Positions 1 to 64,000 of a stretch of DNA of 64,000 bases are shown here, piece by piece (within the stretch, counting starts at the first letter, position 1; every line of letters starts with the position of its first letter). The DNA lies in NCBI GenBank assembly GCA_002269645.1, contig NIVC01000031.1:930001-994000 (forward strand). The letters run 5' to 3'. This DNA comes from Macrostomum lignano. Its lineage: Eukaryota. The position numbers were made by a program, and so were the translations under genes. The notes beneath the pieces are model-generated. The model was not told the DNA's origin and ran no database searches. It saw only the letters and a program-made list of their open reading frames with translations.

Positions 1-803
1 GCCTGCCAGGTTGTCTGGTTGCAACAGACTTCTAAATGAGACTCGAAAGCATATGGGATCAAGCTCGGAAAAAATATTTTAGGATTTTGCTGAACGAACT
101 TAAGAAGCTGTTTTGGGTTTAATATTTCTCCTCACATCTATTTCTTCTACTCAAAATCATATGGTTGCTTATAGAACTTTTGGATGTCAACCCACACTTG
201 AAACATGTTTTAAACATTATAACTCTACACTAACTCAGAACAAAACGTGAATTTGTCAGGAATAAACTGAAAACTAAAAAGGATACGTTTTAGTAAAAGT
301 GATTTAATTACCATCAACATGCACAACACAGCCAGCTCAACTCACATGCGATAAAAGCAGAATTTAAAGTAGGATGGCCAATAGCACTAGATGTAACCAT
401 TACCTGTAACCATGTTGTTAAAAGCACCTGCAAAATTCGTTGCGTCGCCGCTTTTGGTAACTCAATAGACGCTAGCAGTCGACGCCACGAATTTATGTTT
501 ATTTCTGTGTATGGCTCGGGTACTCGACGCTTTTCGGTCAGGACGGCAGAAGCCATTTTTTCGCTCGTCGCCGGATTAGGGTAGCGAACAGGGAATTGCG
601 CCCAGGTAGATGTCTCGGACACAGCACATAGCAACCCGAGTATTAAGCCTTCATGGCAATATATTAACCTACTAGTTAAAGCTACCGTTTACAGGCCCAG
701 CGGCCTACTTACAAAGTTTAAAAGCTTGAAACTCCATTGTGGTCCAAAAGTGAGTCCTAGCAAGCAGTATGGAAGGGCGCAGATGCCAGATTAGCACCGC
801 AGA

Positions 804-1962
804 TGCCTGCGGTGCTAAAATGAGTGCCTGTGGCGCTAAAATGAGTGCCTACGGCGCTAAAATGAGTGCCTGTGGCGCTAAAATGAGTGCCTACGGCGCT
901 AAAATGAGTGCCTACGGCGCTAAAATGAGTGCCTGTGGCGCTAAAATGAGTGCCTACGGCGCTAAAATGAGTGCCTGTGGCGCTAAAATGAGTGCCTGTG
1001 GCGCTAAAATGAGTGCCTACGGCGCTAAAATGAGTGCCTGTGGCGCTAAAATGAGTGCCTACGGCGCTAAAATGAGTGCCTGTGGCGCTAAAATGAGTGC
1101 CTGTGGCGCTAAAATGAGTGCCTACGGCGCTAAAATGAGTGCCTGTGGCGCTAAAATGAGTGCCTACGGCGCTAAAATGAGTGCCTGCGGCGCTAAAATG
1201 AGTGCCTGCGGTGCTAAAATGAGTGCCTGCGGCGCTAAAATGAGTGCCTGCGGTGCTAAAATGAGTGCCTGCGGCGCTAAAATGAGTTCCTGCGGCGCTA
1301 AACTGAGTGCCTGCGGCGCTAAAATGAGTGCCTGCGGCGCTAAAATGAGTGCCTGCGGCGCTAAAATGAGTGCCTGCGGTGCTAAAATGAGTGCCTGCGG
1401 CGCTAAACTGAGTGCCTGCGGCGCTAAAATGAGTGTCTCCGGGGCTAAAATGAGTGCCTGCGGTGCTAAAATGAGTGCCTGCGGCGCTAAAATGAGTGCC
1501 TGCGGCGCTAAACTGAGTGCCTGCGGCGCTAAAATGAGTGCCTGCGGTGCTAAAATGAGTGCCTGCGGCGCTAAAATGAGTGCCTGCGGTGCTAAAATGA
1601 GTGCCTGCGGCGCTAAACTGAGTGCCTGCGGCGCTAAAATGAGTGTCTCCGGGGCTAAAATGAGTGCCTGCGGCGCTAAAATGAGTGCCTGCGGCGCTAA
1701 AATGAGTGCCTGCGGCGCTAAACTGAGTGCCTGCGGCGCTAAAATGAGTGCCTGCGGCGCTAAAATGAGTGCCTGCGGCGCTAAAATGAGTGCCTGCGGT
1801 GCTAAAATGAGTGCCTGCGGCGCCAAAATGAGTGCCTGTGGCGCTAAAATGAGTGCCTGTGGCGCTAAAATGAGTGCCTACGGCGCTAAAATGAGTGCCT
1901 GTGGCGCTAAAATGAGTGCCTGCGGTGCTAAAATGAGTGCCTGCGGCGCCAAAATGAGTGCC
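804..1962. repeat. 21-bp tandem minisatellite (GCCTGCGGCGCTAAAATGAGT)n, about 55 units
   Basis: Unit read directly. It accounts for the ORFs 757..1980, 769..2013 and 1164..1826. Confidence 0.97.
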
Positions 1963-3233
1963 AAAATTAGTCATGTACATGTTGAATTCTTGGCTTTGTC
2001 CCCCCTACCATAAAATCCATGGCGACGCCCCTGAAGGCAACTGCAGCGAGCTGCAGCCGAGGGGCCTTGGCGTGGGCCGAAAAGCATAGATACTGAAAGC
2101 AAGTCTTTTCCGCTCGCCGAGAAAAAACCTCCAGAAAATTTCTGGAGGAAAAAAACGAGCGGCTAGAGACAGACGAGTGCATTCAGTATATTATTAATTA
2201 GACGGAATTGAGAACTGTTTGAGTTGTCTTAGTGCAAAGTCGGTAGCAGTGAGAGATTCAAGAATCAGGTGAATATAGCAGTTCAGTGCATCGTGATTTC
2301 AGGACAGAAACAGCAAAACTTGTAGAAAACTACCTCTTGTTTATGAAAACTAAGCTACGCTCGTAATAGAAGAAAATAACAAATCTTGAGTAAAACTGAC
2401 GCAATGATTTTAAATCGCTTGGGTTTCAAGTTATGAACTTTAAAACGCACACACACTACTAGTGATGAGAAGCTAGTAGCTAGATAGATTTAGAGTTACA
2501 TAATTCCGATGTCTTGCACTACCAGAAATGTTCCCATTTCTAAATGTATTAGGTATTTAAATTGACAAATGGTGCATGGAATGCATTGGTTAAACCAGAA
2601 AAGAACTGCAGATAGTGATTACATTGATTAGTGCCCACTGCCCACCCCAGAAGACGAACGCAGCAAGCTCAAGAGCAGCAAATGGCGCAGGAACAGCGAG
2701 GAGGTCAGGGAAGGCTGCCATGCACTCCCCCCCCGTATATTTCAGACCGATTACGAGAAAATATTCAAGCATTATTGACAACAGTTAGAACGGATCAAAG
2801 CAGGATTAAAAGAGTGACAGGATACGAAAAAAAATTTTTTTTTCAATTGCAATGCGACAGCGAGGCCAAAGAGCCAACCGCGGGGTATAAAACCCCCGCC
2901 ACGCAACCCCCCCCCCCAACACCGGGGGTGGGGGAAGCCGCGGGGAGGGGCAGGGGTGGGCAGCGTACACAAACGCCAGTTAGCGCAGCCCGCGCAAACT
3001 AGCCATTAGTGCCCACTGCCCACCCCAGAAGACGAACGCAGCAAGCTCAAGAGCAGCAAATGGCGCAGGAACAGCGAGGAGGTCAGGGAAGGCTGCCATG
3101 CACTCCCCCCAAACACCAAAAGCAGCAAGAAAACAGACTAGAGCAAAAGCAGACCAAGCAGAGGCAAGCAAAAGCGGACAAGCAAACAAAAAAGGAGCCC
3201 AAAACCTTTCTTCAAAAAAAACCGCGAAACACG

Positions 3234-4210
3234 TCAGGTTTGGTCAAGCGCCGCAACAGCAAGCTTGCGCGCCGCACGCAGAGCCGTGTCATCGCGGGAC
3301 AGGTAGACGCTCACTGCGTCGCTGCGCCAGTCACCCACGCACTGGATCTCCCGCACTGACAGGCCGCACCGGGCCGCCCAGGTGGCGGCGCCTCGCAGCA
3401 GGCTATGCACAGAAAACCCGGCCGCCGGCACTCCCGCCTTGCCGAGCCACGACCTGAACTGTACATCGAGCCTCCGAGACGTCAGAGATGCGTGACCGGA
3501 CGATCCACTGCTGAATGAAAACAGGCCCTGCTGCCGCCGCTTCAGCCGGTTGCAGCGCAGGTGGCCTCGCAGTGCCGCCACTGGACAGAGCGGGTGGCCC
3601 GAAGTCAACTCTGGCAGCAGCACGCGATGCGTCCGGCCGTACTGGTTGGTCTTCCCGAAGCTGGACGTCAGAAGCAGGCCTTCGGGGCATCTTGCCAGCG
3701 ATCTCAGTCGCAGCACTGGCGGATCGGCGCGCCCTCGCGGCAGCAGGCTGGACTTCCTGAACATCCCCCACCAAGCGCACATGACCGCAGCCCAGCAGGC
3801 CGCCTGCACAGGATTCGAGCTGTCGACTTGCAGCCGCAGTCTCGACAAAAGGTCTGGCGACACCGGCAGCTTGCGACTCGGCTCCGACCCCAGCCCGCGC
3901 TTGGCTCCCCGCAGAACCAGGTGCAGCAGCGGGTGCCTGGTCAGGTCCGGCACTCCCGCCAGTCGGAAACTGGCGGACAGAGCGCTGATATGCACGCGGA
4001 CGCTGCCGAAGGAGCTGAGCCGGCCGTCCACGAGCTGGCCGACGTAGTTTGCGAGATCCTCCGCCCGACAGCCGAGTGGGTCGAGCCGCCGCTCTCGGCA
4101 GAAGCGTTGCCAGGAGCGGACAGCAGATGACAGCGACCTCTTGGACGATGATGCGTAGGCCTGCTGGAGCAGTTTGGCGGCGGCAGCGTCGAGAGACCCA
4201 GGGAGGCGAC
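3234..4210 (-). CDS. Ngaro ORF3 tyrosine recombinase; open frame extends upstream of the tracked GTG start to 4210
   Basis: WGMFRKSSL (R), FGKTNQ (K), HSLLRGAAT, GDWRS and SVYL (Y) motifs. The frame is open from 4210 with no ATG ahead of the domain. Confidence 0.92.
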
Positions 4211-5913
4211 CTATAAAAAAAGAAAGGCGGCGGAGGCAGGGCTAAGCGCATGTCCCGCAAATTCATGCGGGCAAACAGAGGCGGTTGCATAGGCTCGCAA
4301 CAGAAAATTCAGCAACTCCTGCCGGCAATGCAGGCGGGAGGCGGCGTCGGCAAACAGCTGAAACCGGCCGGGCACATGGTGGGCGGTGACCACAATGTTC
4401 TGCTTTAGGCACAGCAGAGCAACAGTCTGCAGCAGCCGCAACAGCCGGGGCTCCCTGGATGACCCCTTGTTGATAATCGCGCAGGCTGCAGCATTGTCGC
4501 AGTAGACAGCGATCCGGCAGTTGTGCAGTTGACGGCGCCAGTGCAGCAACGCCAGCAGCACCGCGGCAGCCTCCTTGTAGTTGATGCAGCAATCGCTGAA
4601 CTCGCTCCCAGCGTCGACTTCCCACTGCAGATAGCACCAGTCAGAACCAGCCGGATCTCTCAGAACAGCCGCTGCCCCACCAGACAGGCGTCCGTCTCCA
4701 TGGCAACCGGCCTCCTGGCAGCAGGCCAGAGCTCGCGACCTGGCTGCTGCCGCAGAGCAACTTTCCACCAGCTCAGGACGCTCTTGAACTGGCCATCCAC
4801 CAACAGCCGATCCTTCGGGCTCGACAAGTCGTTGACGCGGTCGATCAGGTCTCGCAGAAACGGCCGGCCGTTGCAGACCACCTGACAGGCCCAGTTGAGC
4901 CTGCCCACCAGCTTCTGCAACTCGTGCTTGGAGATCCGCCGCTTTGTGCAGCAGAGGTCAAGGCAGGCCTGCAGCTCCTCGACCTTCGTCTCTGGCAGAC
5001 TCATCAGCCCCGACTGCGTGTTGAACTGAATGCCCAGAAAGCACATCTCCTGCGTCGGCTGCACGCACTTCTTCCAGTTGACAGTCAGGCCCAGGCTCTG
5101 CAGCAGCTGCGTCAGCTTGTTGTAAAAGCGCCAGCACTCAGTCAGCGAACCCGCGAAGCCGAAGTCGTCCATGTAGACCTCGAAGTTGAAGAACCTGCGC
5201 TTGAGCATCATAAACCGAATGGCGTTGCTGATCTGGAAAAAGCTGCTCACGGATGCTGCCGCTCCGAACGGCAGCCGGGTGTCCACCATGTAGGTCGGCT
5301 CCGCCTCGCCCTCGAACGTGAACTTCAGACCGGTGAGGCAGTGGTCGTCCGGGTGAATGCCGCAAGACCGGTAGGCCTGGCTCAGGTCAACTTTACACAT
5401 GTACATGTCCTGGCGCAGCTTCCTGGCAAAGGCAGCCGCCGAAGAAAACCGAAGCTTCTGCTGGCAAGCAAACAAATCATTGACGGCCCGACCCTGGGGC
5501 TGGCTGCAGTCATGGATGAGCCGGATGCCGCCCCCGGACTTCGGAATGGCGCCCAGCGCGCTCACAATAGTCGGCTTGGCGCTAACGCGATATCTTCCAG
5601 CTTGCAGTTCCCGGCGGACTTGGGCCTGAACCTCGACTCGATGCTGACCGATGGAGCCGTAGTTCTCCTGCTCGACAGAGTCCACCGGACTGCTGACGTT
5701 CCTGATGCGGAAACCGTCCTTCACACCGCTCAAAACGAACTGCGCGAGCTTCGTTGGCATCTCCGTGTCGGCCAGCTCGAGGCGCCAGGCTTCAAGGCGC
5801 AAGTCGGTGGAGAGGGTCCCGCTTGAGTCGCCCTCCTTTTGGGGTTCGACAGAAGCAGCGGCAGGGGCGGGCGACTCGATGTTAAGAGACCCCTGCCGCT
5901 GAACCCCGTCCAT
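4211..5913 (-). CDS. Ngaro ORF2 reverse transcriptase + RNase H, broken by a 1-nt frameshift at about 4676
   Basis: RLIHDCS, KVDLSQAY, RLPFG, YMDD, FLGI in ORF 4660..5913. ETDAC, YKEAAAVL, YCDN and ADAASR (RNase H) continue in ORF 4211..4768. Confidence 0.92.
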
Positions 5914-6944
5914 CAGTTTTTTGCCGCCTGGCCGCCCTCCGCTCTGTGGAAGGAGGCCTCCGAGTGCGCCTGGCCGCAGCGCCTACAACTGTGTGCGAAA
6001 CGACACGGGTTGCGCTGGCAGCCGGACACCTTGTTGAAGTCGAAGCAGACCGTTCGCTTTGCTGATGACCTGCCCGCTGAGCCGGCCTGCAGTTGAAGAT
6101 TCGGAGCCATCAGGTGTGCCGCCACCAGACCCAGGTCGGTCACCGAGCTGTCCCAGGCGCCGGCCTCAGCCTGCTGCGCTCTGTACTCATCATCATAGCG
6201 CAAAACGCGGCCGCGGTCGAATCCGAGATCGAGGAGGTCGCCAATTTTTGCCGTGTGCTTCAGGTACTCCAGCAGCTCCGACATGTCGATAGCGCCATCA
6301 CGGAGGACGAGGAGTCTGCCGTCCTTCAGCATCTGCATCAGCGCGTTGGCGTTTCCGGTGATCCAGTCGCCAACCGAGAGGCTGTCCAGGGCGGCCTGCT
6401 TGCTGGCTTGACTTGACTTGTTCAGCGCCAGCCGCTTGCGAGCGCTGATGAACTCCGGCACCCGGTACGCATTCGGGTGCTGCTGCCCCGCCTGCTGCAC
6501 CTCATCCGGCACTCTGACAGTAGGTCCCAGCACTAAATCCTCAAGGCTTGAGTACTCACCGGGCACTGAGGCATTTGCAGGTCGCCGCTGCGGCTCATCG
6601 GCACGGCGGTCCAGCTGACGGATCTCGGCTTCCAGGCGCGCTTGGTCCCGACGAATTGTCAGCAAGCGCAGCTGCTTCTCTGCCTCCCGCAGGTCCCGGT
6701 CCAGGTCGCCAGTCCCGTGGGTCCCTCCTGCCGCCTCGCCGCCGCCGACCGCCGCCGTCCCGTCGTCGGGCCCTCGCTTTCTCGATGGATTGCTGGTGTC
6801 CGATTCATCGATGGGTCCCGTGTCCACTGAGCCTTGAGACTGCAGAAGTCTCTCCAATAGGGTGCGCTTGTTGCCTACGGTTTGCAAGCCTTTAGCACGC
6901 AAGGCCATGCGCAGTTCTCTTACCGTCAGAGAATCGTGTGACAT
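5913..6944 (-). CDS. Ngaro ORF1 (Gag-like), 343 aa, with N-terminal SAP domain and C-terminal Cys/His zinc finger
   Basis: SLTVRELRMALRAKGLQTVGNKRTLLERL fits the SAP pattern; CFDFNKVSGCQRNPCRFAHSCRRCGQAH at the C-terminus. Confidence 0.88.
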   Translation of the reverse strand: MSHDSLTVRELRMALRAKGLQTVGNKRTLLERLLQSQGSVDTGPIDESDTSNPSRKRGPDDGTAAVGGGEAAGGTHGTGDLDRDLREAEKQLRLLTIRRDQARLEAEIRQLDRRADEPQRRPANASVPGEYSSLEDLVLGPTVRVPDEVQQAGQQHPNAYRVPEFISARKRLALNKSSQASKQAALDSLSVGDWITGNANALMQMLKDGRLLVLRDGAIDMSELLEYLKHTAKIGDLLDLGFDRGRVLRYDDEYRAQQAEAGAWDSSVTDLGLVAAHLMAPNLQLQAGSAGRSSAKRTVCFDFNKVSGCQRNPCRFAHSCRRCGQAHSEASFHRAEGGQAAKN

Positions 6945-7333
6945 GACTCAGCAGCAAAAAAAAAATAGCGCAATGCGACAGCGAGGCCTGCGACAGCGAT
7001 TTTTTTCAATCGCAATGCGACAGCGAGGCCAAAGAGCCAATCGCGGGGTATAAAACCCCCCGCCACGCAACCCCCCCCCCAACACCGGGGGTGGGGGGAA
7101 GCCGCGGGGGAGGGGCAGGGGTGGGCAGCGTACACAAACGCCAGTTAGCGCAGCCCGCGCAAACTAGCCAGAAAAGCCAACTAATCAAATTCATTGTCCT
7201 TAATTTTATAACCCAACCCCGACTATATTGCTTAGTAACTTAGTGGTAAGAAGAATAAGCGGTATTGATCAGTAACCATCCAAGTTAAAACACGACTGGC
7301 CAAGATTCACTTCATCAAGCGGTTGCAGTGCCA

Positions 7334-8720
7334 TCAGGTGCCCGAGTCGCAGGCGGCTGAGGCCGAGTCCAGCAGGACGGACACGAAGCCCTGGTCACCA
7401 GGCCAGGTGCCGCCGAACGCGCAACCGCCACTGCAGAAGGAGCCGCCGCCTCCGCCGCTGTGGCCGAAGTTTAGTCCAGCTCCGCCTCCGCTGAAGCCGC
7501 CGCCGGCTCCAGGGGCACCTTTCAGTGAGCCGGTCCTGCTGCCGCCTCCGCCGCCTCCGCCGAAGCCTCCATGGCAGACGCTGCCGTCTCCGGCGCTGCC
7601 GCCGACCCAGCCGTCGGCCAGACTGCCGCCTCTCTCTCCGTCCGAGGAGTTCCGTCTGGGGTTGACGGCCCTGCCGAGCCAGCCGGCGCCGCAGCCGCCG
7701 TGGGTTCCATCAGGGTGGGTGTTAGCGGGGTTGTTGGAGCCCGGCTGACCGTTCGTGCCGCCGAATCCCGCCAAGGACATATAGCCACCCAGACTGTTGG
7801 AACCGTTGATCCCGATCTCTCCCGGTTGTCCTACGGTGAAATCAATCAAACTGCTGATCTGATTGTTTTTTATTCTTAACTTTTACAATGTAAGCAACGG
7901 CAGCTACTGAGCTCACCATTTCTACTCCAGGAAGCTCCGCCACCTCCGCCGGCAGCCAGCAGCAGCAGCTGGTCGCCTGTCCGGTACACGAAGCTCCCGC
8001 CGCCTCCGCCGCCTCCCTCAAACTCCAAGGAGGTCGAGCCGCCCATCTGGCCCACAACGATGCTCAGCTGGGTGCCGGCTGTCAGGTTGACTCTGGCGCT
8101 CACCTGGGCTCCCTGGCCTCCGGATGTGTTCGTCATTAAGTTGTCGCCACCTCTGGCGCCGGCAGCTTTGTTCAGGTAGCAGCCGGTCGTGTTGATGAGG
8201 ACGCTTTGGATTGAGCCGTTTCTGCCTGTGCTGCTGTCTGCAATGGAAAAGCGTCAGCGAGTTACAAAACTGGAGTGAGTGCAATTTCTGTCTGTAAAAA
8301 TCATGTCAACCACCCACGACTATGCATTGATGACTCACTCCGAAGCTGCACTGCAGGCGAAGGCCAGTCGCTGTCGTCCGCCTTCCACACCTTTGCACCG
8401 GCCTGAGATCCGATGATTTGCTGCACCTGATCTGCTGAGATTGACAGCTTGGCGGTTGTTATGGTGATCATCTCGCACGTAGCATTGCTCTCCACTGAGA
8501 CGCAGCGCTGCAGCTCACCCTCTGGCACATTATTAGACAGTCGGTTGCATCAGTGGCCTCGGTTGTTGTCGTGACGTTGTTGTAGGCGTTCAGAACGGCT
8601 TCCAGCATCTGAAGCTGCTGCTCTGAGCACACAGAATAGATCCGCAAACTTGTGGTGCCTTGTACTCGAAGCACGAGCGAGCAGCAAACTGCGTTGGTGC
8701 AATGGGTGGTCAGCAATGAA
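7334..8720 (-). pseudogene. PAN/apple-like + ALK/LTK-type glycine-rich protein, paralog 1. Exons about 8720-8339 (frameshift near 8500), 8237-7917 and 7830-7334
   Basis: GARGGDN...LTAGTQLSIVVGQ...GGGGGGGSFV...LLAAGGGGG and GGFGGGGGG...GGGFSGG...GGGGGSF. GT-AG phase-1 junctions match paralog 2. The start codon is unclear. Confidence 0.75.
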
Positions 8721-10116: not shown

Positions 10117-13100
10117 TCAAGCAAAGCCCGCCATGTACAAGTCAGGTGGCCGCCGCTCTCTCGCCGACCGCCGCGGAACCGTGACCGGCTCGGCCGGCGC
10201 CGCCGGCTGCTCCTCGGGTGCCTCGTCTGCCTGCAGCTCGGGCCAGAAGGTCACCGCGTCGCCGCCAGGATCGGCCGCCTGCCCGGGCGGCTCAGCGACG
10301 GTGCCGTCGTTGTCGAAGTCGGCGGCCGGCGGCTGGTGGTCTGCTGCGGCCGGAAGCTCCAGTGACGCCCGCCGCTGCACGAAGCACTTGAGGCGGTCGT
10401 GGTGCACCACCAGCCGGCGCCTGCGGCCGGTCTCGTCCTGGATGCGGTAATTGACCTCGCCCAGGCGCCTCAGGACTCGGTACGGCCCCTTCCACTTGGC
10501 GCTCAAACACCGCGTCTGGCCGCGCTTGACGACGGAGTTGCGCAGCATCACGAGCTGGCCCTCTTCGAACGGCACAAACCGAGAGTCCTGGTTGGCCAGC
10601 CGGTTGCGCTCGGCCTGGGCGCTCCGCAGTCGGCCGTGCACCGTGTCGAAGGCGCTCTGCAGGTTCTCCTGAGTCCGCCGCAGGAAGCCGTGATGTCCAC
10701 CGTCGGCTGCCGGCCGGTCGCCGCTTATCAGCCAGCTGTCGAGATCCAGCCTCGGTGGCCAGCCGTGGAGGACCTGGTACGGACTGAGGCCGATGGTGCT
10801 GTGCACGGAGGTGTTGTAGGCCCAGGTCACATATGGCAGCTTGCTGTCCCAATCCTGCTGGTTCTCGGCCACCGTCGTCGCCAGCATATCGCCGAGCGTC
10901 CGGTTGCCTCGCTCGACGATTCCGTTGCCGCTCGGATGAAACGGCGACGTGCGCGTCTTTTCGACGCCCAGCTTCTCGCAGAGCCGGCCGAACACCTCGC
11001 TCTCGAATTGCCGTCCCTGGTCACTGTGCAGCACCTGAGGAGCGCCGTGACGCAGAACCACCGACTTGAGCAGCGCATCCGCCACCGTAACCGCGTCGAT
11101 CGCCGCCAGGGCTGCCGTCTCCATCCACTTGGAGAAGGCGTCGCACATGCTCAGGATGTACGCCTTGCCATCAGTCGTACGCGGAAGCGGCCCTTTGATG
11201 TCGATCTGCACCAGCTGCCACGGAGCCGTCGGCTGGCACGTCGACTGTAGCGGCGCCTTCTGCGGCTTGGTTGGACTCTTCTTGGCCAGGCAGACCGCAC
11301 AGCTGGCCACCCAGTTCTCGACGTCCCGTCGCAGACCAGGCCACCAGCAGCGCTCAGACAATCTCGCTCCGGTCTTGTCGACGCCGAGGTGTCCGCTCTG
11401 GTCACACGAGTGCGCCTGCTGCAGGAAATGTGGCCGCAGGTGACCGGGAATGACTGGCCGGCCACCGACCAGCAGGACTCCCGCCGAGCTCACCGAGGCC
11501 TCGTCCAGCAGCTCGCGAACCTGCGCCGCCCATGAATCGGACAGGCTGTCAATCCCTTCGGTCAGCGCCTGGAACGCCTTGCTCAGCAGCGGATCTTGCA
11601 GTTGCTCCTCGTGCAGGCGGCTGTCGTCCCACCGAGGCTGCAGGCGCGTGCCGGCCACCCGGCTCAGCGCATCCGGCACGACGTTGTCCATGCCAGGCCG
11701 GTACAGCAGCTCGAACGAAAACTGCTGCAGCGTAGAAAGCCATCGCGCCAGCCGACCTTCGGGGTCCTTCGTTGCCAGCAGACCTTGCAGTGGCCGGTGG
11801 TCCGAGTAGACTCTGAAGCTCGGAACACTCAGCAGGTACGTCCTGAAGTGCTTCAAACTCCAGACAAGCGCCAGCAGCTCGCGGTCGGTCGCCGAGTAGT
11901 TGCGCTCGGCCTTGTTGAGGGTGCGAGAGGCGAACGCCACAGGCAGCTCGGCGTCACCGTGCAGCTGGCTGAGCACCGCGCCGACGGCGAACTGACTGCT
12001 GTCGCAGCTGAGCACAAACTGCTTGGTGAAATCTGGCAGCCTCAGCACCGGAGCTGTCGTCAGCCGGTCCTTCAACTCGCGGAACGCTCGCTCGCAGTCG
12101 CTGCTCCACGCGAAGTCCCTCGATTTCACGCTGACGTCGTGCAGGACCCTCGCCGTCTGGCTGAAGCCTGGGATGAACCGGCGGTAGAAACCCAGCATTC
12201 CAAGAAACCGCTTCACCTCCTCGTTCGTCGTTGGGCTGGGCATGCTGCGAATGGCCTCGACCTTGCCGGGATCCGGTGCGATGCCCTGCTCGCTGATCAG
12301 GTGTCCCAGGTACAGCACCCGGCGATGGCCGAACGCGCTCTTGGCCTTGTGCAGCTTGAGTCCCGCGTCTCGCAGCCGCTTAAAAACTTCCGCCAGCCTC
12401 TCTAAGTGCTCGTCGAACGTCCTGCTGAAGACAATGATGTCGTCGATATAAGTCAGCACGGACTCCCAGGACAGGCCGGACATCACCAGCTCCATGAGCC
12501 GCTGGAACGTCGCCGGGGCATTGCACATCCCGAAGCCCATCTTGCAGAATTGCATCAGGCCGCGCGTCGAATAGAAAGCCGTCTTGTACCGGTCCTCCTC
12601 CGCCACCTCCACCTGGTGGTAGCCCTGCCGGCAGTCGATGGTGGAGAACCAGGAGCATCCGACAAGCGCATCCATGGCCTGCTGCAGGTGCGGCAGCGGG
12701 TATGCATCCTTGACCGTGCAGGCGTTGAGCTGCCGCCAGTCCGTGCACAGTCTGATGTCGCCGTTCTTCTTGCGGACCACCAGCAGGTTGCTGGCCCATG
12801 GCGATGTCGACGGTTCGATGATGCCGCTTTCCAGCATCTGACCGATCTTCTTGTCCACCTGGTCTCGCACAGACAGCGGCAGCCGGCGCTGGACCTGCCG
12901 GTGTGGCCGCGCTCCCGGCTCCAGCTCGATTTGGTGCTGCAGCAACGCCGTCGTGCCCAGGTCGTACTCGTGCCTGGCGAACAGGTCCTCGTTGCTCTCC
13001 AACAGCTGTCGCAGCCTCGCAGCATCCGGTTCGGGCAGCTCCGCGTTGATGTTCCAACCGACGGGGTTCTCCTGGGCCGCCTCCTGGCGACCGTCCCCGT

Positions 13101-13833
13101 CTGTCATCGCGCCTTCGAACGTGCCGACCGCCTTGTTGGCGTACAGCAGCACGGGCTCCTCTGCAAGGTTGCACATTTTCACCGGGATGCGGCAGTCGTC
13201 CGAGACCGCCAGCACGCGGCCCGGCAGGACGGCAGTGGACTTCACGAAGTCCTCAGACGGCTCAAAGACTCCCTGCTCGCCGCTGGAATCCACCTTGAGC
13301 CACACCAGCTTCTCGCTGCGGGCGGGCAGCTCCGTAGTTGCCGCCACACGCGCCACCAGGACACTCGGCACCAGGCGACAATCTGCTCGAGCCGGCTCGC
13401 TGCTGAAAGGCACAGCTGTGCCGTCGAACCTGACGACGCCTTCTTTAATGTCAATGGTCATCGCCTGCGACACCTCGCCAATGAAGTCCATGCCGATGAT
13501 CAGGCTGGGCTGGATGCCGTCCACGACTGTGAAGCGATGGCGCACGCGGATGGTCTGGCCGATCGAAACATCCGCTGCTGACAGGCCAAGGCAGCGCAGC
13601 CGGGATCCGTCGACAGCCGTCGGCAGCGCACCGATGTCGGTGGAGTCGATCTTGCACTGCAGTCTGTCGAACAGCGACTTGTCCATCAACGAAACTTGCG
13701 CGCCGGTGTCGAGCAGAGCAGGCGCTGACACGCTGCCAAAGTGCACCTTCACGAAGACTGAAGGCGCTGATCTGAGGGCCCCTTTTGAGCGGGTCGGTGC
13801 TGGCCCCAGGCTGCCGACCCTCAGAAGTTTCCC
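10117..13833 (-). CDS. Gypsy Pol (protease, RT, RNase H, integrase with GPY/F), probably made by -1 frameshift
   Basis: LLDTGAQVS, YIDD, CDSSQFAVGAVL, H-H-C-C zinc motif, QIDIKG / SDQG / VERGNRTL, KWKGPY. Confidence 0.96.
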   Translation of the reverse strand, partial: GKLLRVGSLGPAPTRSKGALRSAPSVFVKVHFGSVSAPALLDTGAQVSLMDKSLFDRLQCKIDSTDIGALPTAVDGSRLRCLGLSAADVSIGQTIRVRHRFTVVDGIQPSLIIGMDFIGEVSQAMTIDIKEGVVRFDGTAVPFSSEPARADCRLVPSVLVARVAATTELPARSEKLVWLKVDSSGEQGVFEPSEDFVKSTAVLPGRVLAVSDDCRIPVKMCNLAEEPVLLYANKAVGTFEGAMTDGDGRQEAAQENPVGWNINAELPEPDAARLRQLLESNEDLFARHEYDLGTTALLQHQIELEPGARPHRQVQRRLPLSVRDQVDKKIGQMLESGIIEPSTSPWASNLLVVRKKNGDIRLCTDWRQLNACTVKDAYPLPHLQQAMDALVGCSWFSTIDCRQGYHQVEVAEEDRYKTAFYSTRGLMQFCKMGFGMCNAPATFQRLMELVMSGLSWESVLTYIDDIIVFSRTFDEHLERLAEVFKRLRDAGLKLHKAKSAFGHRRVLYLGHLISEQGIAPDPGKVEAIRSMPSPTTNEEVKRFLGMLGFYRRFIPGFSQTARVLHDVSVKSRDFAWSSDCERAFRELKDRLTTAPVLRLPDFTKQFVLSCDSSQFAVGAVLSQLHGDAELPVAFASRTLNKAERNYSATDRELLALVWSLKHFRTYLLSVPSFRVYSDHRPLQGLLATKDPEGRLARWLSTLQQFSFELLYRPGMDNVVPDALSRVAGTRLQPRWDDSRLHEEQLQDPLLSKAFQALTEGIDSLSDSWAAQVRELLDEASVSSAGVLLVGGRPVIPGHLRPHFLQQAHSCDQSGHLGVDKTGARLSERCWWPGLRRDVENWVASCAVCLAKKSPTKPQKAPLQSTCQPTAPWQLVQIDIKGPLPRTTDGKAYILSMCDAFSKWMETAALAAIDAVTVADALLKSVVLRHGAPQVLHSDQGRQFESEVFGRLCEKLGVEKTRTSPFHPSGNGIVERGNRTLGDMLATTVAENQQDWDSKLPYVTWAYNTSVHSTIGLSPYQVLHGWPPRLDLDSWLISGDRPAADGGHHGFLRRTQENLQSAFDTVHGRLRSAQAERNRLANQDSRFVPFEEGQLVMLRNSVVKRGQTRCLSAKWKGPYRVLRRLGEVNYRIQDETGRRRRLVVHHDRLKCFVQRRASLELPAAADHQPPAADFDNDGTVAEPPGQAADPGGDAVTFWPELQADEAPEEQPAAPAEPVTVPRRSARERRPPDLYMAGFA

Positions 13834-14615
13834 TGCGGCTGACCAGTTGGTGTCGGGCACACCGCGGCGGAGTGACCCTTGCCTGAGCACCGGCTGCAGC
13901 GGCTGCCGATCGCCTTTGGGCACCGCCTAGCAATGTGACCCGGCTCGCCGCAGCTGAAGCACTTAATGGGTCCCTTCTGACGCCTGTCTCTTCCGGGTGG
14001 TCCCGTTCGCACGCTGGCTGTCAGCTGCTGCATCTGCTGCTCCAGCTGGCTCAGCCGTCTGTCTTCTACCGACACCGCGGCTGATGAGGCTGTAGTTGCG
14101 TGGCTCACCAGCTCAAGCTGCGCAGCTCTGTCGACGATGGCGGCCAGCGAACACGAGTCCGCGTCCTGGTCCTTCAACAGCGCATCTCTCACGGCAGATG
14201 GCAGGAGGCGCATCAGACGAAACTTCACGTCCTTTTCCCGAGCCGCCACGGAGTCGTCCGGGCGGGCCCGAAGGTGGAGAAGCTTCAGGCTGTAGGCGAG
14301 CTCCCTCAGCGACTCGTTGGGCTGTCGCTTTCGCTCTTCAAACTCCTCCATTGCTCTGTAGCAGCTCAGACTGTTGCCGAAGCACTCGATCAGCTTCTCC
14401 TTCAGCCTTTCATAGCTGGCTGACACGTCTGCCGGCTGCTCCCAGACGAAGATTTGCGCTTCTCCTGTCACCAGCAGTCTCAGCTTCTTTGCCTTCTTCT
14501 TGTCGTCCCATTCGCAGTCGTCGGCGAAGTCCTCAAACGTGCTTAGCCACATTCTCACGTTGGAGTCGCCGCTGAACTTTGGAGGCAATAAACTGGCTTG
14601 CTCTGATTTGGCCAT
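13821..14615 (-). CDS. Gypsy Gag, 264 aa, with two CCHC zinc knuckles
   Basis: CFSCGEPGHIARRC and CSRCSGKGHSAAVC. Confidence 0.94.
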   Translation of the reverse strand: MAKSEQASLLPPKFSGDSNVRMWLSTFEDFADDCEWDDKKKAKKLRLLVTGEAQIFVWEQPADVSASYERLKEKLIECFGNSLSCYRAMEEFEERKRQPNESLRELAYSLKLLHLRARPDDSVAAREKDVKFRLMRLLPSAVRDALLKDQDADSCSLAAIVDRAAQLELVSHATTASSAAVSVEDRRLSQLEQQMQQLTASVRTGPPGRDRRQKGPIKCFSCGEPGHIARRCPKAIGSRCSRCSGKGHSAAVCPTPTGQPQGNF

Positions 14616-18823: not shown

Positions 18824-19433
18824 AAATAAAGGTAAATATCAACATGAAGTATTATTTGAGTTGCCGATGCATTTCGTCCATTTGCATTAGGACATCGTCA
18901 GGGTCTTTTTATGGAGAAACAATTTGAACGAATATTCAGTATATATAGATAGTTGAGAGTAACAAGAGTAGTTGAATTGAGTTTTTAATTGATGGTTTAA
19001 AACTTGTACATAGTAATCAATTTTGATACAGTATTGGTTGGGTAAAGTGCATATCAGTTTCAAGCCAGTCCGGTCATTGACAAATCAGCTAAAAAATTCT
19101 GAGTTGACGGCTAGCCCCACCCATCGCAAGTTGGTTATTTAACAACTAGTCAACTCAGAATTTTTTAGCTGATTTGTCAATGACCGGACTGGCTTGAAAC
19201 TGATATGCACTTTACCCAACCAATACTGTATCAAAATTGATTACTATGTACAAGTTTTAAACCATCAATTAAAAACTCAATTCAACTACTCTTGTTACTC
19301 TCAACTATCTATATATACTGAATATTCGTTCAAATTGTTTCTCAATAAAAAGACCCTGACGATGTCCTAATGCAAATGGACGAAATGCATCGGCAACTCA
19401 AATAATACTTCATGTTGATATTTACCTTTATTT
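18824..19433. mobile_element. Foldback/MITE-like element with about 285-bp near-perfect inverted arms and a 40-bp spacer
   Basis: 18824-19108 is the reverse complement of 19149-19433; one mismatch seen. Confidence 0.88.
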
Positions 19434-60990: not shown

Positions 60991-61734
60991 GTGAAGAATT
61001 AGAGTGAATAATGGTAGAGAATCAGTTATGTTTGAGTAGGAAAAGTAGTATAAAAAGTTGCGATAAACGATACAATTCCAACCAAAGGACGCATCAAAGT
61101 ATGCAGTTATTAATTATTAATAACCAAAAAGTAACCAGGAAAGCAAAAACTGACTGCGAGCCTAGCATGTATAAGCATAGATCATGAAGATAGAATGTGA
61201 AAAAATGTAACAGAGAAACTAAACATACAAACGGAAGACATCAACTGAGTTACGAGGCTCTGTGGTCAATACTGGATTTAGCCATGTTTTCAGACAGTCT
61301 CTGTCCTTGTGTGCTTTGAAAATTTCGGTCAGATATATTATCATGCTGGTAATATAAACTACCCGCAAATATTTGTTATGCAGCTGCAGAGGGCTTTTCA
61401 GAAAGGCGGTCCTGCCCTGAAGCTGTTACCGAAAATCAGACTTTAAATGGTGCATTGGAATGTGAAAAGTGCATTTTTAGTCGCTGCAATGCTTGAAATG
61501 GTTAAAAAAAAGGAAAATCGAGATTAAATGGCAAATTTTAGTGCAATAATAAAATATGTGCTTTAATCTCCTAGCAGATCGTGCTTGGAAACAGAAAATA
61601 TGACTCCATGCTTAACATTTATTTCAGCTTGGTTACTGGGAGGCCGCACCGAATCAACCTCTAGATTCCGATAGATCTGGTAAACGATATTTGGTCACTG
61701 GGGCTTTCAAAAAGTGCAGAGTTTACATTATCTC

Positions 61735-64000
61735 TAACATGGCATGAGAATCTTCTGTCTAACATGAGACTCCAGTGTCTAACATGAGACTCTTCTGTCT
61801 AACATGAGACTCTTCTGTCTAACATGAGACTCCAGTGTCTAACATGAGACTCTTCTGTCTAACATGAGACTCTTCTGTCTAACATGAGACTACAGTGTCT
61901 AACATGAGACTCTTCTGTCTAACATGAGACTACAGTGTCTAACATGAGACTCTTCTGTCTAACATGAGACTACAGTGTCTAACATGAAACTCTTCTGTCT
62001 AACATGAGACTCTTCTGTCTAACATGAGACTCTTCTGTCTAACATGAGACTACAGTGTCTAACATGAGACTCTTCTGTCTAACATGAGACTACAGTGTCT
62101 AACATGAGACTCTTCTGTCTAACATGAGACTCTTCTGTCTAACATGAGACTACAGTGTCTAACATGAGACTCTTCTGTCTAACATGAGACTACAGTGTCT
62201 AACATGAGACTCTTCTGTCTAACATGAGACTACAGTGTCTAACATGAAACTCTTCTGTCTAACATGAGACTCTTCTGTCTAACATGAGACTCTTCTGTCT
62301 AACATGAGACTACAGTGTCTAACATGAGACTCTTCTGTCTAACATGAGACTACAGTGTCTAACATGAGACTCTTCTGTCTAACATGAGACTACAGTGTCT
62401 AACATGAAACTCTTCTGTCTAACATGAGACTCTTCTGTCTAACATGAGACTCTTCTGTCTAACATGAGACTACAGTGTCTAACATGAGACTCTTCTGTCT
62501 AACATGAGACTACAGTGTCTAACATGAGACTCTTCTGTCTAACATGAGACTACAGTGTCTAACATGAAACTCTTCTGTCTAACATGAGACTCTTCTGTCT
62601 AACATGAGACTCTTCTGTCTAACATGAGACTACAGTGTCTAACATGAGACTCTTCTGTCTAACATGAGACTACAGTGTCTAACATGAGACTCTTCTGTCT
62701 AACATGAGACTACAGTGTCTAACATGAAACTCTTCTGTCTAACATGAGACTCTTCTGTCTAACATGAGACTCTTCTGTCTAACATGAGACTACAGTGTCT
62801 AACATGAGACTCTTCTGTCTAACATGAGACTACAGTGTCTAACATGAGACTCTTCTGTCTAACATGAGACTACAGTGTCTAACATGAGACTCTTCTGTCT
62901 AACATGAGACTACAGTGTCTAACATGAGACTCTTCTGTCTAACATGAGACTACAGTGTCTAACATGAGACTCTTCTGTCTAACATGAGACTACAGTGTCT
63001 AACATGAAACTCTTCTGTCTAACATGAGACTACAGTGTCTAACATGAGACTCCAGTGTCTAACATGAGACTCTTCTGTCTAACATGAGACTCTTCTGTCT
63101 AACATGAGACTCTTCTTTCTAACATGAGACTCTTCTGTCTAGCATGAGACTCTTCTGTCTAACATGAGACTCTTCTGTCTAGCATGAGACTCTTCTGTCT
63201 AACATGAGACTCTTCTGTCTAACATGAGACTACAGTGTCTAACATGAGACTCCAGTGTCTAGCATGAGACTACAGTGTCTAACATGAGACTCTTCTGTCT
63301 AACATGAGACTCTTCTGTCTAACATGAGACTCTTCTGTCTAACATGAGACTCCAGTGTCTAACATGAGACTCCAGTGTCTAACATGAGACTCCAGTGTCT
63401 AACATGAGACATCTTTGTCTAACATGAGACTCTTCTGTCTAACATGAGACTCCAGTGTCTAACATGAGACTCTTCTGTCTAACATGAGACTCCAGTGTCT
63501 AACATGAGACTCTTCTGTCTAACATGAGACTCCAGTGTCTAACATGAGACTCCAGTGTCTAACATGAGACTCTTCTGTCTAACATGAGACTCTTCTGTCT
63601 AACATGAGACTCTTCTGTCTAACATGAGACTCTTCTGTCTAACATGAGACTCTTCTGTCTAACATGAGACTCTTCTGTCTAACATGAGACTCTTCTGTCT
63701 AACATGAGACTCTTCTGTCTAACATGAGACTCCAGTGTCTAACATGAGACTCTTCTGTCTAACATGAGACTCTTCTGTCTAACATGAGACTCCAGTGTCT
63801 AACATGAGACTCCAGTGTCTAGCATGAGACTCTTCTGTCTAACATGAGACTCTTCTGTCTAACATGAGACTCTTCTGTCTAACATGAGACTCATCTGTCT
63901 AATATGAGACTACGTGTCTAACATGAGACTCCAGTGTCTAACATGAGACTCCAGTGTCTAACATGAGACTCCGGTGTCTAACATGAGACTACAGTGTCTA
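61735..64000. repeat. 20-bp satellite (TGTCTAACATGAGAC + TCTTC/TACAG/TCCAG)n running off the window end
   Basis: Read directly; more than 110 units. Confidence 0.98.

What the first reader, a model, noticed from the sequence alone, without database searches (positions are those of the whole stretch)
4210..6560. Predicted splicing fuses the Gag SAP domain to the tyrosine recombinase (SAP-YR integrase)
Seen: the YR frame is open from 4210 but has no ATG ahead of the domain. It begins right after a textbook acceptor, CCTTTCTTTTTTTATAG|GT, whose TAG is also the RT/RNase H stop codon (4211-4213). Gag holds a consensus donor, CCCG|GTGAGT, at 6560/6559 (after codon 128, phase 1). The acceptor needs phase 1 to enter the YR frame. 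Removing the 2349-nt intron gives about 453 aa: SAP + coiled-coil fused to YR (...ANASVP-G-RLPGSLDAAAAKLL...). Inference: the element makes its integrase by env-like splicing and gives it a SAP DNA-binding tether. With the frameshift signal, one transcript would yield Gag, Gag-Pol and SAP-YR. I do not know of this being described for Ngaro elements but cannot search the literature.
Basis: partly seen in the sequence, partly recalled or inferred. Interest (0 to 1): 0.85.

Follow-up and report, generated by a model that had tools for sequence, protein, structure and literature searches.

The report
Retrotransposon splices Gag onto its recombinase
This stretch is a jumping gene (an Ngaro-type retrotransposon) that likely makes its DNA-inserting enzyme by splicing the front of its Gag protein onto a recombinase: matching splice signals are kept in every recombinase-bearing sister family examined, and one sister copy lies in the genome with exactly that intron missing, against the published guess of ribosomal frameshifting.

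Summary
Coordinates, phases and the 453-aa arithmetic are right. One detail is copy-specific: the stop codon in the acceptor is absent from 6 of 6 near-identical copies. The element is Ngaro-type (split direct repeats; gag, RT/RH, YR). The splice model is well supported. A phase-1 acceptor sits at the YR start in 16 of 16 families (YR about 31-69% identical), and a phase-1 GTRAG donor sits in the Gag linker in 15 of 15 families with intact Gag. A sister family without YR lacks both signals. A sister-family copy (L130) lacks exactly the predicted GT..AG intron, keeps all four repeats, holds one 452-aa SAP-YR frame and sits in a site empty in two homologous contigs. Against: no junction in three RNA-like contig sets, which show unspliced RNA; the L130 junction has 5-nt microhomology; no such copy was found for the window's own family. 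A review, seen second-hand, guessed -1 frameshifting; a slippery site is present in only 4 of 14 families. SAP as a DNA tether is untested. The scan noted spliced Ngaro-like elements in two other genomes, with a different exon plan.

The parts
7012..7170 (-). split direct repeat A1 (5' end)
   Evidence: 20-mer self-match to 3005-2849; RNA-like contigs begin at about 6983-6902 or cover it thinly
5913..6944 (-). Gag ORF, 343 aa: SAP, linker, coiled coil, core, CCCH-like end
6840..6932 (-). SAP domain (Gag residues 5-35)
   Evidence: Pfam PF02037 E 5.7e-7, above cut-off
6606..6704 (-). coiled-coil-like helix of Gag (approx. residues 81-113)
   Evidence: aligned in 13 families; long helix 73-111 in the low-confidence model of the sister fusion
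6918..6926 (-). alternative donor-like site, phase 0, not conserved
   Evidence: listed in 4 of the 6 copies of this subfamily scored, the window included, and in no other family
6554..6562 (-). splice donor CCG|GTGAGT, phase 1 after Gag codon 128
   Evidence: GT kept in 22 of 22 related copies with a Gag match; phase-1 GTRAG in the linker of 15 of 15 families
4211..6559 (-). predicted 2349-nt intron (Gag core, RT, RH)
   Evidence: the homologous 2365-nt stretch is exactly what the sister copy L130 lacks
5841..5922 (-). A AAA AAC slippery site before the Gag stop and a strong hairpin behind it (predicted -1 shift Gag to RT)
   Evidence: hairpin z -4.3, 0 of 200 shuffles as stable
4214..5928 (-). 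RT and RNase H, broken in this copy by a frameshift near 4660-4680 and a stop at 4211-4213
   Evidence: Pfam RVT_1 5e-14, RT_RNaseH 3e-4
4211..4228 (-). polypyrimidine tract and splice acceptor, phase 1 to the YR frame
   Evidence: rank 1 of 115 YAG sites; YAG|G in 29 of 29 related copies where the site aligned; 16 of 16 families
3234..4210 (-). tyrosine recombinase exon (no ATG ahead of the domain)
   Evidence: R151, H268, R271, Y302 invariant in alignment A1; profile matches Cre at E 1e-21
3005..3110 (-). split direct repeat B1
2849..3005 (-). split direct repeat A2
2627..2732 (-). split direct repeat B2 (3' end)

Best explanation
This is an Ngaro-type tyrosine-recombinase retrotransposon whose single transcript is likely used two ways: unspliced, it would give Gag and, by a predicted -1 frameshift, Gag-RT/RH; spliced from a phase-1 donor just behind the Gag coiled coil to an acceptor at the start of the YR frame, it would give a Gag-N-terminus/recombinase fusion of about 453 aa. 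Shown: sites, phases, their conservation, their absence from a YR-less family, and a natural copy lacking exactly the intron in a sister family. Inferred: that the spliced mRNA is the route to YR protein; that it is a minor or stage-restricted RNA, as unspliced RNA must remain as genome and Gag-Pol template; that the L130 copy arose by reverse transcription of spliced RNA with RT supplied in trans. The Gag piece supplies the missing start codon. I think its likeliest further job is to carry YR into the Gag particle through the shared coiled coil, with SAP adding non-specific nucleic-acid binding; both roles are untested.
For: (1) Acceptor at the YR start in phase 1 in 14 of 14 families defined at 70% YR identity (between-family 31-69%); best tract in the element in 10 of 14, top 5 of 89-126 in all 14; two further families checked afterwards also fit (L136, L171). 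(2) Phase-1 GTRAG donor in the Gag linker in 13 of 13 families with intact Gag, plus those two. The strict G|GTRAG form occurs 12 times in 583 linker codons, all phase 1, against 6 in 3960 codons elsewhere in Gag. Synonymous resampling expects 2.6 of 12; G-E/G-K pairs elsewhere in Gag use the donor-forming codons in 5 of 34. The residues over the donor vary (G-E, G-K, R-K) and its aligned position shifts, while GTRAG and phase stay. (3) Negative control: 11 copies of a family with intact Gag, RT/RH and repeats but no YR have no GTRAG anywhere in Gag, and no tract at the RH end in the 2 copies read. (4) L130 (G000:C3137) equals parent L150 (99.5%) minus CAG|GTAAGC...TTTTGCAG|GTC, 2365 nt, phase 1 after 120 codons: one 452-aa SAP-YR frame, four repeats kept, TAA at both ends, site empty in L159 and L160. 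(5) No ATG in the open YR frame ahead of the acceptor in 12 of 14 families. (6) A database gene model, P0128, joins the same two sites in another family; models from amphioxus, a hemichordate and a limpet fuse a 135-175 aa N-terminal piece to YR. These models are predictions, not independent proof.
Against: No 6560-4210 joint is listed for 3 RNA-like runs in which a neighbouring host intron is spliced (4 weaker joints were not shown). Single contigs cross donor and acceptor unbroken, and depth (12-18 over RT/YR) shows no step at the acceptor; contigs drop minor forms, so this shows only that unspliced RNA dominates there. The L130 junction has 5 nt of microhomology (CAGGT), so a DNA deletion or RT template switch could give the same join. 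Only one such copy was found; none for the window's family or four other families searched. Two of 14 families have an in-frame ATG upstream of the acceptor. No clear branch-point consensus was found. Families share ancestry, so the resampling figure overstates independence.
Confidence: 0.85

Rival explanations
1. YR is made by a second -1 ribosomal frameshift in the RH/YR overlap, giving a Gag-RT-RH-YR polyprotein; the T-rich tract is a slippery site, not a splice tract.
For: YR lies in the -1 frame to RH in 13 of 14 family representatives, and this family's tract holds T TTT TTA in the RH frame. Poulter and Butler 2015, as quoted in PMC13003380, call frameshifting probable for Ngaro.
Against: A canonical slippery heptamer lies in the overlap in only 4 of 14 families, whereas the same scan finds A AAA AAC at the Gag end in 8 of 13 (a ninth shows it by eye). 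No stable hairpin follows the RH/YR site (z +0.4) against z -4.3 at Gag/RT. It does not explain the Gag donor, its absence from the YR-less family or L130.
Confidence: 0.08
2. The apparent splice sites are by-products of protein conservation (G-E in Gag, F-x-x-x-Q at the RH end), and L130 is an ordinary microhomology deletion that happened to fuse Gag to YR in frame.
For: 5-nt microhomology at the L130 junction; 16 distinct deletions of 200 nt or more among 114 loci show such events are common. L130 was found with a fused query, which selects for such joins.
Against: The parent body holds 7438 such microhomology pairs and only 1 of 16 deletions matches the intron: naive chance about 0.2%, several percent if hundreds of deleted copies exist genome-wide (my estimate). 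Ten other conserved-Gly columns of Gag are not GGT-dominated, while the donor column is 9 of 11 GGT. The YR-less family keeps intact Gag and RH without either signal.
Confidence: 0.04
3. The acceptor is used for spliced-leader trans-splicing, with the flatworm leader's terminal AUG as the YR start, or YR has its own promoter and start.
For: About 30% of Macrostomum lignano genes are trans-spliced and reported flatworm leaders end in ATG (PMC12582326 passages); database proteins labelled with that species match these families. Two of 14 families have an upstream in-frame ATG.
Against: The acceptor is phase 1 to YR in every family, so a leader AUG would read the RH frame, not YR. Twelve of 14 families have no upstream ATG; in the window the first in-frame ATG is at 3782, inside the domain.
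Confidence: 0.03

Closest known systems
Ngaro-like tyrosine-recombinase retrotransposons (order DIRS)
   Same: A1-ORFs-B1A2B2 split direct repeats; gag, RT/RH, YR order; YR overlapping the RH end in the -1 frame; no methyltransferase (definitions from passages of PMC9210276, PMC4157794, PMC8547959)
   Different: YR expression was guessed to be by frameshift (quoted in PMC13003380); here conserved splice sites and an intron-less copy point to a spliced Gag-N/YR fusion. SAP in Gag and a YR-less sister family were not met in the papers searched. No SGNH hydrolase ORF as in amphibian Ngaro (YR ends about 120 nt before B1).
Alternatively spliced Ty1/Copia elements of plants (EVD; PMC5580714, abstract)
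   Same: One retrotransposon transcript is alternatively spliced to set protein ratios
   Different: There splicing makes a Gag-only subgenomic RNA; here it would delete the Gag core and RT/RH and fuse the Gag N-terminus to the integrating enzyme.
Spliced env mRNA of retroviruses and Drosophila gypsy; spliced pol mRNA of foamy viruses (recalled, no call)
   Same: A 3' ORF without its own promoter is reached by splicing from a 5' donor while unspliced RNA stays the genome
   Different: The spliced product here is a tyrosine recombinase carrying 100-145 aa of Gag, not an envelope or a free Pol.

Membership tests
Ngaro-like YR retrotransposon | Split direct repeats A1 ... B1 A2 B2, internal repeats downstream of YR | tested here: met
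   7170-7012 = 3005-2849; 3110-3005 = 2732-2627
Ngaro-like YR retrotransposon | RT and RNase H domains after a gag-like ORF | tested here: met
   Pfam RVT_1 and RT_RNaseH
Ngaro-like YR retrotransposon | Tyrosine recombinase as third ORF with catalytic R, H-x-x-R, Y | tested here: met
   invariant R151, H268, R271, Y302; profile matches Cre, XerC-like and XerD chains; single-sequence Pfam hits are weak (E 0.08)
Ngaro-like YR retrotransposon | No methyltransferase domain (separates it from DIRS1-like and PAT-like) | tested here: met
   no methyltransferase Pfam hit at E 0.05 in three intact RT/RH frames; YR starts directly at the RH end
Ngaro-like YR retrotransposon | RT groups with reference Ngaro elements in a tree | not tested
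   the tree holds only this genome's families; no reference sequences were at hand
Ngaro-like YR retrotransposon | Recombinase-type insertion: no target duplication beyond a short sequence shared with the element's junction | tested here: met
   sister copy L130 against empty sites L159 and L160: TAA at both ends; not tested by an empty site for the window copy
DIRS1-like | Inverted terminal repeats with an internal complementary region | tested here: not met
   termini are direct repeats
Spliceosomal GT-AG intron | Donor and acceptor consensus, matching phase, conserved | tested here: met
Spliceosomal GT-AG intron | Junction seen in RNA | tested here: inconclusive
   not listed in contigs of 3 RNA-like runs; indirect support from the intron-less copy L130

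The most novel reading that the evidence does not exclude
Splicing the Gag N-terminus onto the recombinase is the general way animal Ngaro retrotransposons make their integrase (flatworm families here; fused gene models in amphioxus, hemichordate and limpet), replacing the frameshift assumed in reviews. The Gag piece loads YR into the particle, and spliced RNAs are themselves retrotransposed as recombinase-only mini-elements that could complement YR-less families in trans.
Probability: 0.45. Interest if true: 0.82.

Novelty: new variant of a known kind. Interest (0 to 1): 0.72.

Why it matters
How Ngaro/DIRS-order elements translate a recombinase ORF that has no start codon has been guessed, not shown. 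This gives a specific, testable answer with exact junctions in 15 families, a natural intron-less copy and a natural negative control. If right, the true N-terminus of these integrases is a Gag fragment, so annotated YR ORFs are incomplete, and a retrotransposon must balance splicing against export of intron-retaining genomic RNA, as retroviruses do. It also means that such insertions carry strong donor and acceptor sites able to splice to host exons.

Tried and rejected
RNA: the run search listed no holder on record as RNA. Four runs were laid as contigs and no 6560-4210 joint was listed; no further lay was available. Intron-less copies: none among 48, 45, 41, 43 and 40 matches for five families (candidate lists are capped). 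Other long YR frames and four candidates were frameshifts or ordinary deletions. Protein homolog searches by words were thin. The search with the amphioxus N-terminus found no full Gag, only two models joined to a homeobox, so I could not show that those N-termini are Gag. A structure prediction of the natural 452-aa fusion without an alignment was low-confidence (pLDDT 45); no fold search was run. A three-copy complex job on the coiled coil gave no verdict. The branch-point scan gave no consensus. The phase-0 donor at 6923 is not conserved. The stop/acceptor overlap was rejected as design. L125, sister to the YR-less family, also lacks a linker GTRAG, but its 3' end could not be read, so it is left out of the 15 and 16 counts. 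[quoted passage not shown] Searches were script slips, rerun.
Full report
What is there. Window 7170-2627 on the minus strand is a 4.5-kb element with split direct repeats A1 (7170-7012), B1 (3110-3005), A2 (3005-2849) and B2 (2732-2627). It holds a 343-aa Gag with a SAP domain (Pfam E 5.7e-7), RT and RNase H, and a tyrosine recombinase whose family alignment keeps R, H-x-x-R and Y and matches Cre at E 1e-21. No methyltransferase was found. By structure this is an Ngaro-type element; its place in a reference RT tree was not tested. Database proteins labelled Macrostomum lignano match these families (P0128 is 95-98% identical to places in the own genome), so the host is likely that flatworm.

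Checking the observation. The donor CCG|GTGAGT at 6560/6559 is phase 1 after codon 128; the acceptor at 4211/4210 is phase 1 to the YR frame; the intron is 2349 nt and the product 453 aa; the first in-frame ATG of YR is at 3782. The acceptor ranks first of 115 YAG sites in the element. The stop codon inside the acceptor is private to this copy. Six of 6 near-identical copies lack it, as do contigs of all four laid runs, and in the 5 copies scored RH runs 267 nt further. The window copy also has a frameshift between RT and RH, so it is a broken member of a young family (six other copies at about 99%).

Conservation. I fetched copies found with the window's YR and Gag; 54 with an intact YR fell into 14 families at 70% identity, 31-69% between families. 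All 14 have a YAG acceptor at the YR start in phase 1, the best tract of the element in 10 and within the top 5 of 89-126 in all 14. All 13 families with an intact Gag have a phase-1 GTRAG donor in the linker behind the coiled coil. Twelve have G|GTRAG (12 in 583 linker codons, none in phase 0 or 2; 6 in 3960 codons elsewhere) and one has C|GTAAGT paired with a CAG|ATC acceptor. Predicted products are 436-473 aa. Two families fetched later (L136, L171) fit as well.

Protein constraint does not explain the donor. Synonymous resampling expects 2.6 of 12; G-E/G-K pairs elsewhere form the motif in 5 of 34; the residues over the donor vary between G-E, G-K and R-K. Families are related, so these figures are not independent trials.

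Negative control. Eleven copies of a sister family have intact SAP-Gag, RT/RH and repeats but no YR. None has GTRAG anywhere in Gag, and the two read in detail have no pyrimidine tract at the RH end. The signals are absent when there is no YR to splice to.

An intron-less copy. A profile search returned a database gene model, P0128, joining SAP and coiled coil to YR at exactly the donor and acceptor of family L135. Searching the genome with it found one place where SAP and YR lie in one 485-codon frame. This copy, L130 (G000:C3137), is about 2 kb and keeps all four repeats. It is 99.5% identical to full-length L150 and lacks exactly CAG|GTAAGC...TTTTGCAG|GTC, 2365 nt, phase 1 after 120 codons, leaving a 452-aa frame with SAP at E 2.5e-11. 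Two homologous contigs carry the empty site, and the element is bounded by TAA at both ends. The simplest reading is a spliced RNA that was reverse-transcribed and inserted.

Caveats on that copy. The junction has 5 nt of microhomology. The parent holds 7438 such pairs, and 1 of 16 distinct large deletions among 114 loci matches the intron: naive chance about 0.2%, several percent after allowing that a fused query selected it (my estimate). Its YR is 36% identical to the window's, so this is evidence for the group, not for the window's family. No such copy was found for five families searched by DNA.

RNA. Three of four laid runs behave as RNA: a host intron at 8237-8339 is spliced in them and not in the fourth. 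They cover the element from about 6900-6980 downstream, with contigs crossing donor and acceptor unbroken, and list no 6560-4210 joint (four weaker joints not shown, depth 12-18 over RT/YR and lower over Gag). Contigs drop minor forms, so this shows that unspliced RNA dominates in those samples and no more. It is the main gap.

Rivals. A review, quoted in PMC13003380 (passages and section 12), calls -1 frameshifting probable for Ngaro YR. This family's tract does hold T TTT TTA in the RH frame, but only 4 of 14 families have a slippery heptamer in the overlap, whereas 8 of 13 have A AAA AAC at the Gag end by the same scan. A strong hairpin follows the Gag site (z -4.3) and none follows the RH/YR site (z +0.4). 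Flatworm spliced leaders end in ATG (PMC12582326 passages), but a phase-1 acceptor puts that AUG in the RH frame. Two of 14 families have an upstream in-frame ATG, which may be a local alternative.

Role of the Gag piece. It supplies the start codon (follows from the sequence). A DNA tether through SAP is plausible from the domain's annotation but untested. RefSeq models from amphioxus (482 aa), a hemichordate (502 aa) and a limpet (452 aa) place a non-SAP N-terminus, coiled-coil-like in two, ahead of YR. A partial amphioxus model reads an acceptor-like F-T-G at the same point. I could not see their genomes or show that these N-termini are Gag. They suggest that the conserved part is the Gag N-terminus with its coiled coil, which would fit loading YR into Gag particles; that is inference.

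Novelty. Ten literature searches and passages of PMC7192593, PMC9341512, PMC6681497, PMC8547959, PMC9210276, PMC8557442, PMC4157794, PMC3783388 and PMC3266345 showed no report of spliced Gag-YR fusions in DIRS-order elements; no supplements were read. The founding Ngaro paper and the 2015 review are not held. I recall the former mentioning introns in some YR retrotransposons, unverified, so prior mention cannot be excluded. Splicing as an expression device is known for plant Copia elements (PMC5580714, abstract). The scan's own notes describe spliced Ngaro-like elements in two other genomes, with one leader exon and three acceptors; these are unchecked leads, not support. Verdict: a known kind of element with a likely undescribed way of making its integrase; confidence 0.85, interest 0.72.

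Noticed in passing
L122, L123, L124, L128, L179-L185 (G000:C175, C172, C708, C199, C2306, C2041, C2925, C1400, C782, C491): A young Ngaro-type family (11 copies, about 93-99.9% alike) with intact Gag, RT/RH and split repeats but no recombinase at all; it presumably borrows YR in trans. Its RT has a long Pro/Ala/Gly tandem-repeat N-terminus.
   Followed up: partly
L075, L082, L087, L092 Gag ends: One well-supported clade has replaced the A AAA AAC -1 site at the Gag end by an in-frame TGA followed by CT(G/C), with RT in the Gag frame: a likely switch from frameshifting to stop-codon readthrough.
   Followed up: partly
L130 flanks; L150, L151 3' flanks: This family inserts at TAA just ahead of AATAAAG within a short repeat found at many places in the genome, suggesting a target preference.
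   Followed up: partly
L120, L129, L180/L185: Ngaro-type elements lie directly behind or inside each other, across families and as tandem copies sharing repeats.
   Followed up: no
window 7334-8700, minus strand: Spliced host gene with an ALK/LTK glycine-rich domain (Pfam E 4e-8), ending about 160 nt before the element; intron 8237-8339 is seen in RNA contigs.
   Followed up: partly
window 10117-13926, minus strand: Unbroken 1269-aa Gypsy-type pol frame (protease, RT, RNase H, integrase).
   Followed up: no
P0160, P0161 (database models): In amphioxus models the N-terminal piece found ahead of YR in P0073 is joined instead to a homeobox, hinting that such 5' exons can be spliced to host exons.
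   Followed up: no
window 757-2000, 61623-64000, 18824-19433: 20-nt tandem arrays near both window ends and a perfect 285-nt inverted repeat with a 40-nt spacer.
   Followed up: no
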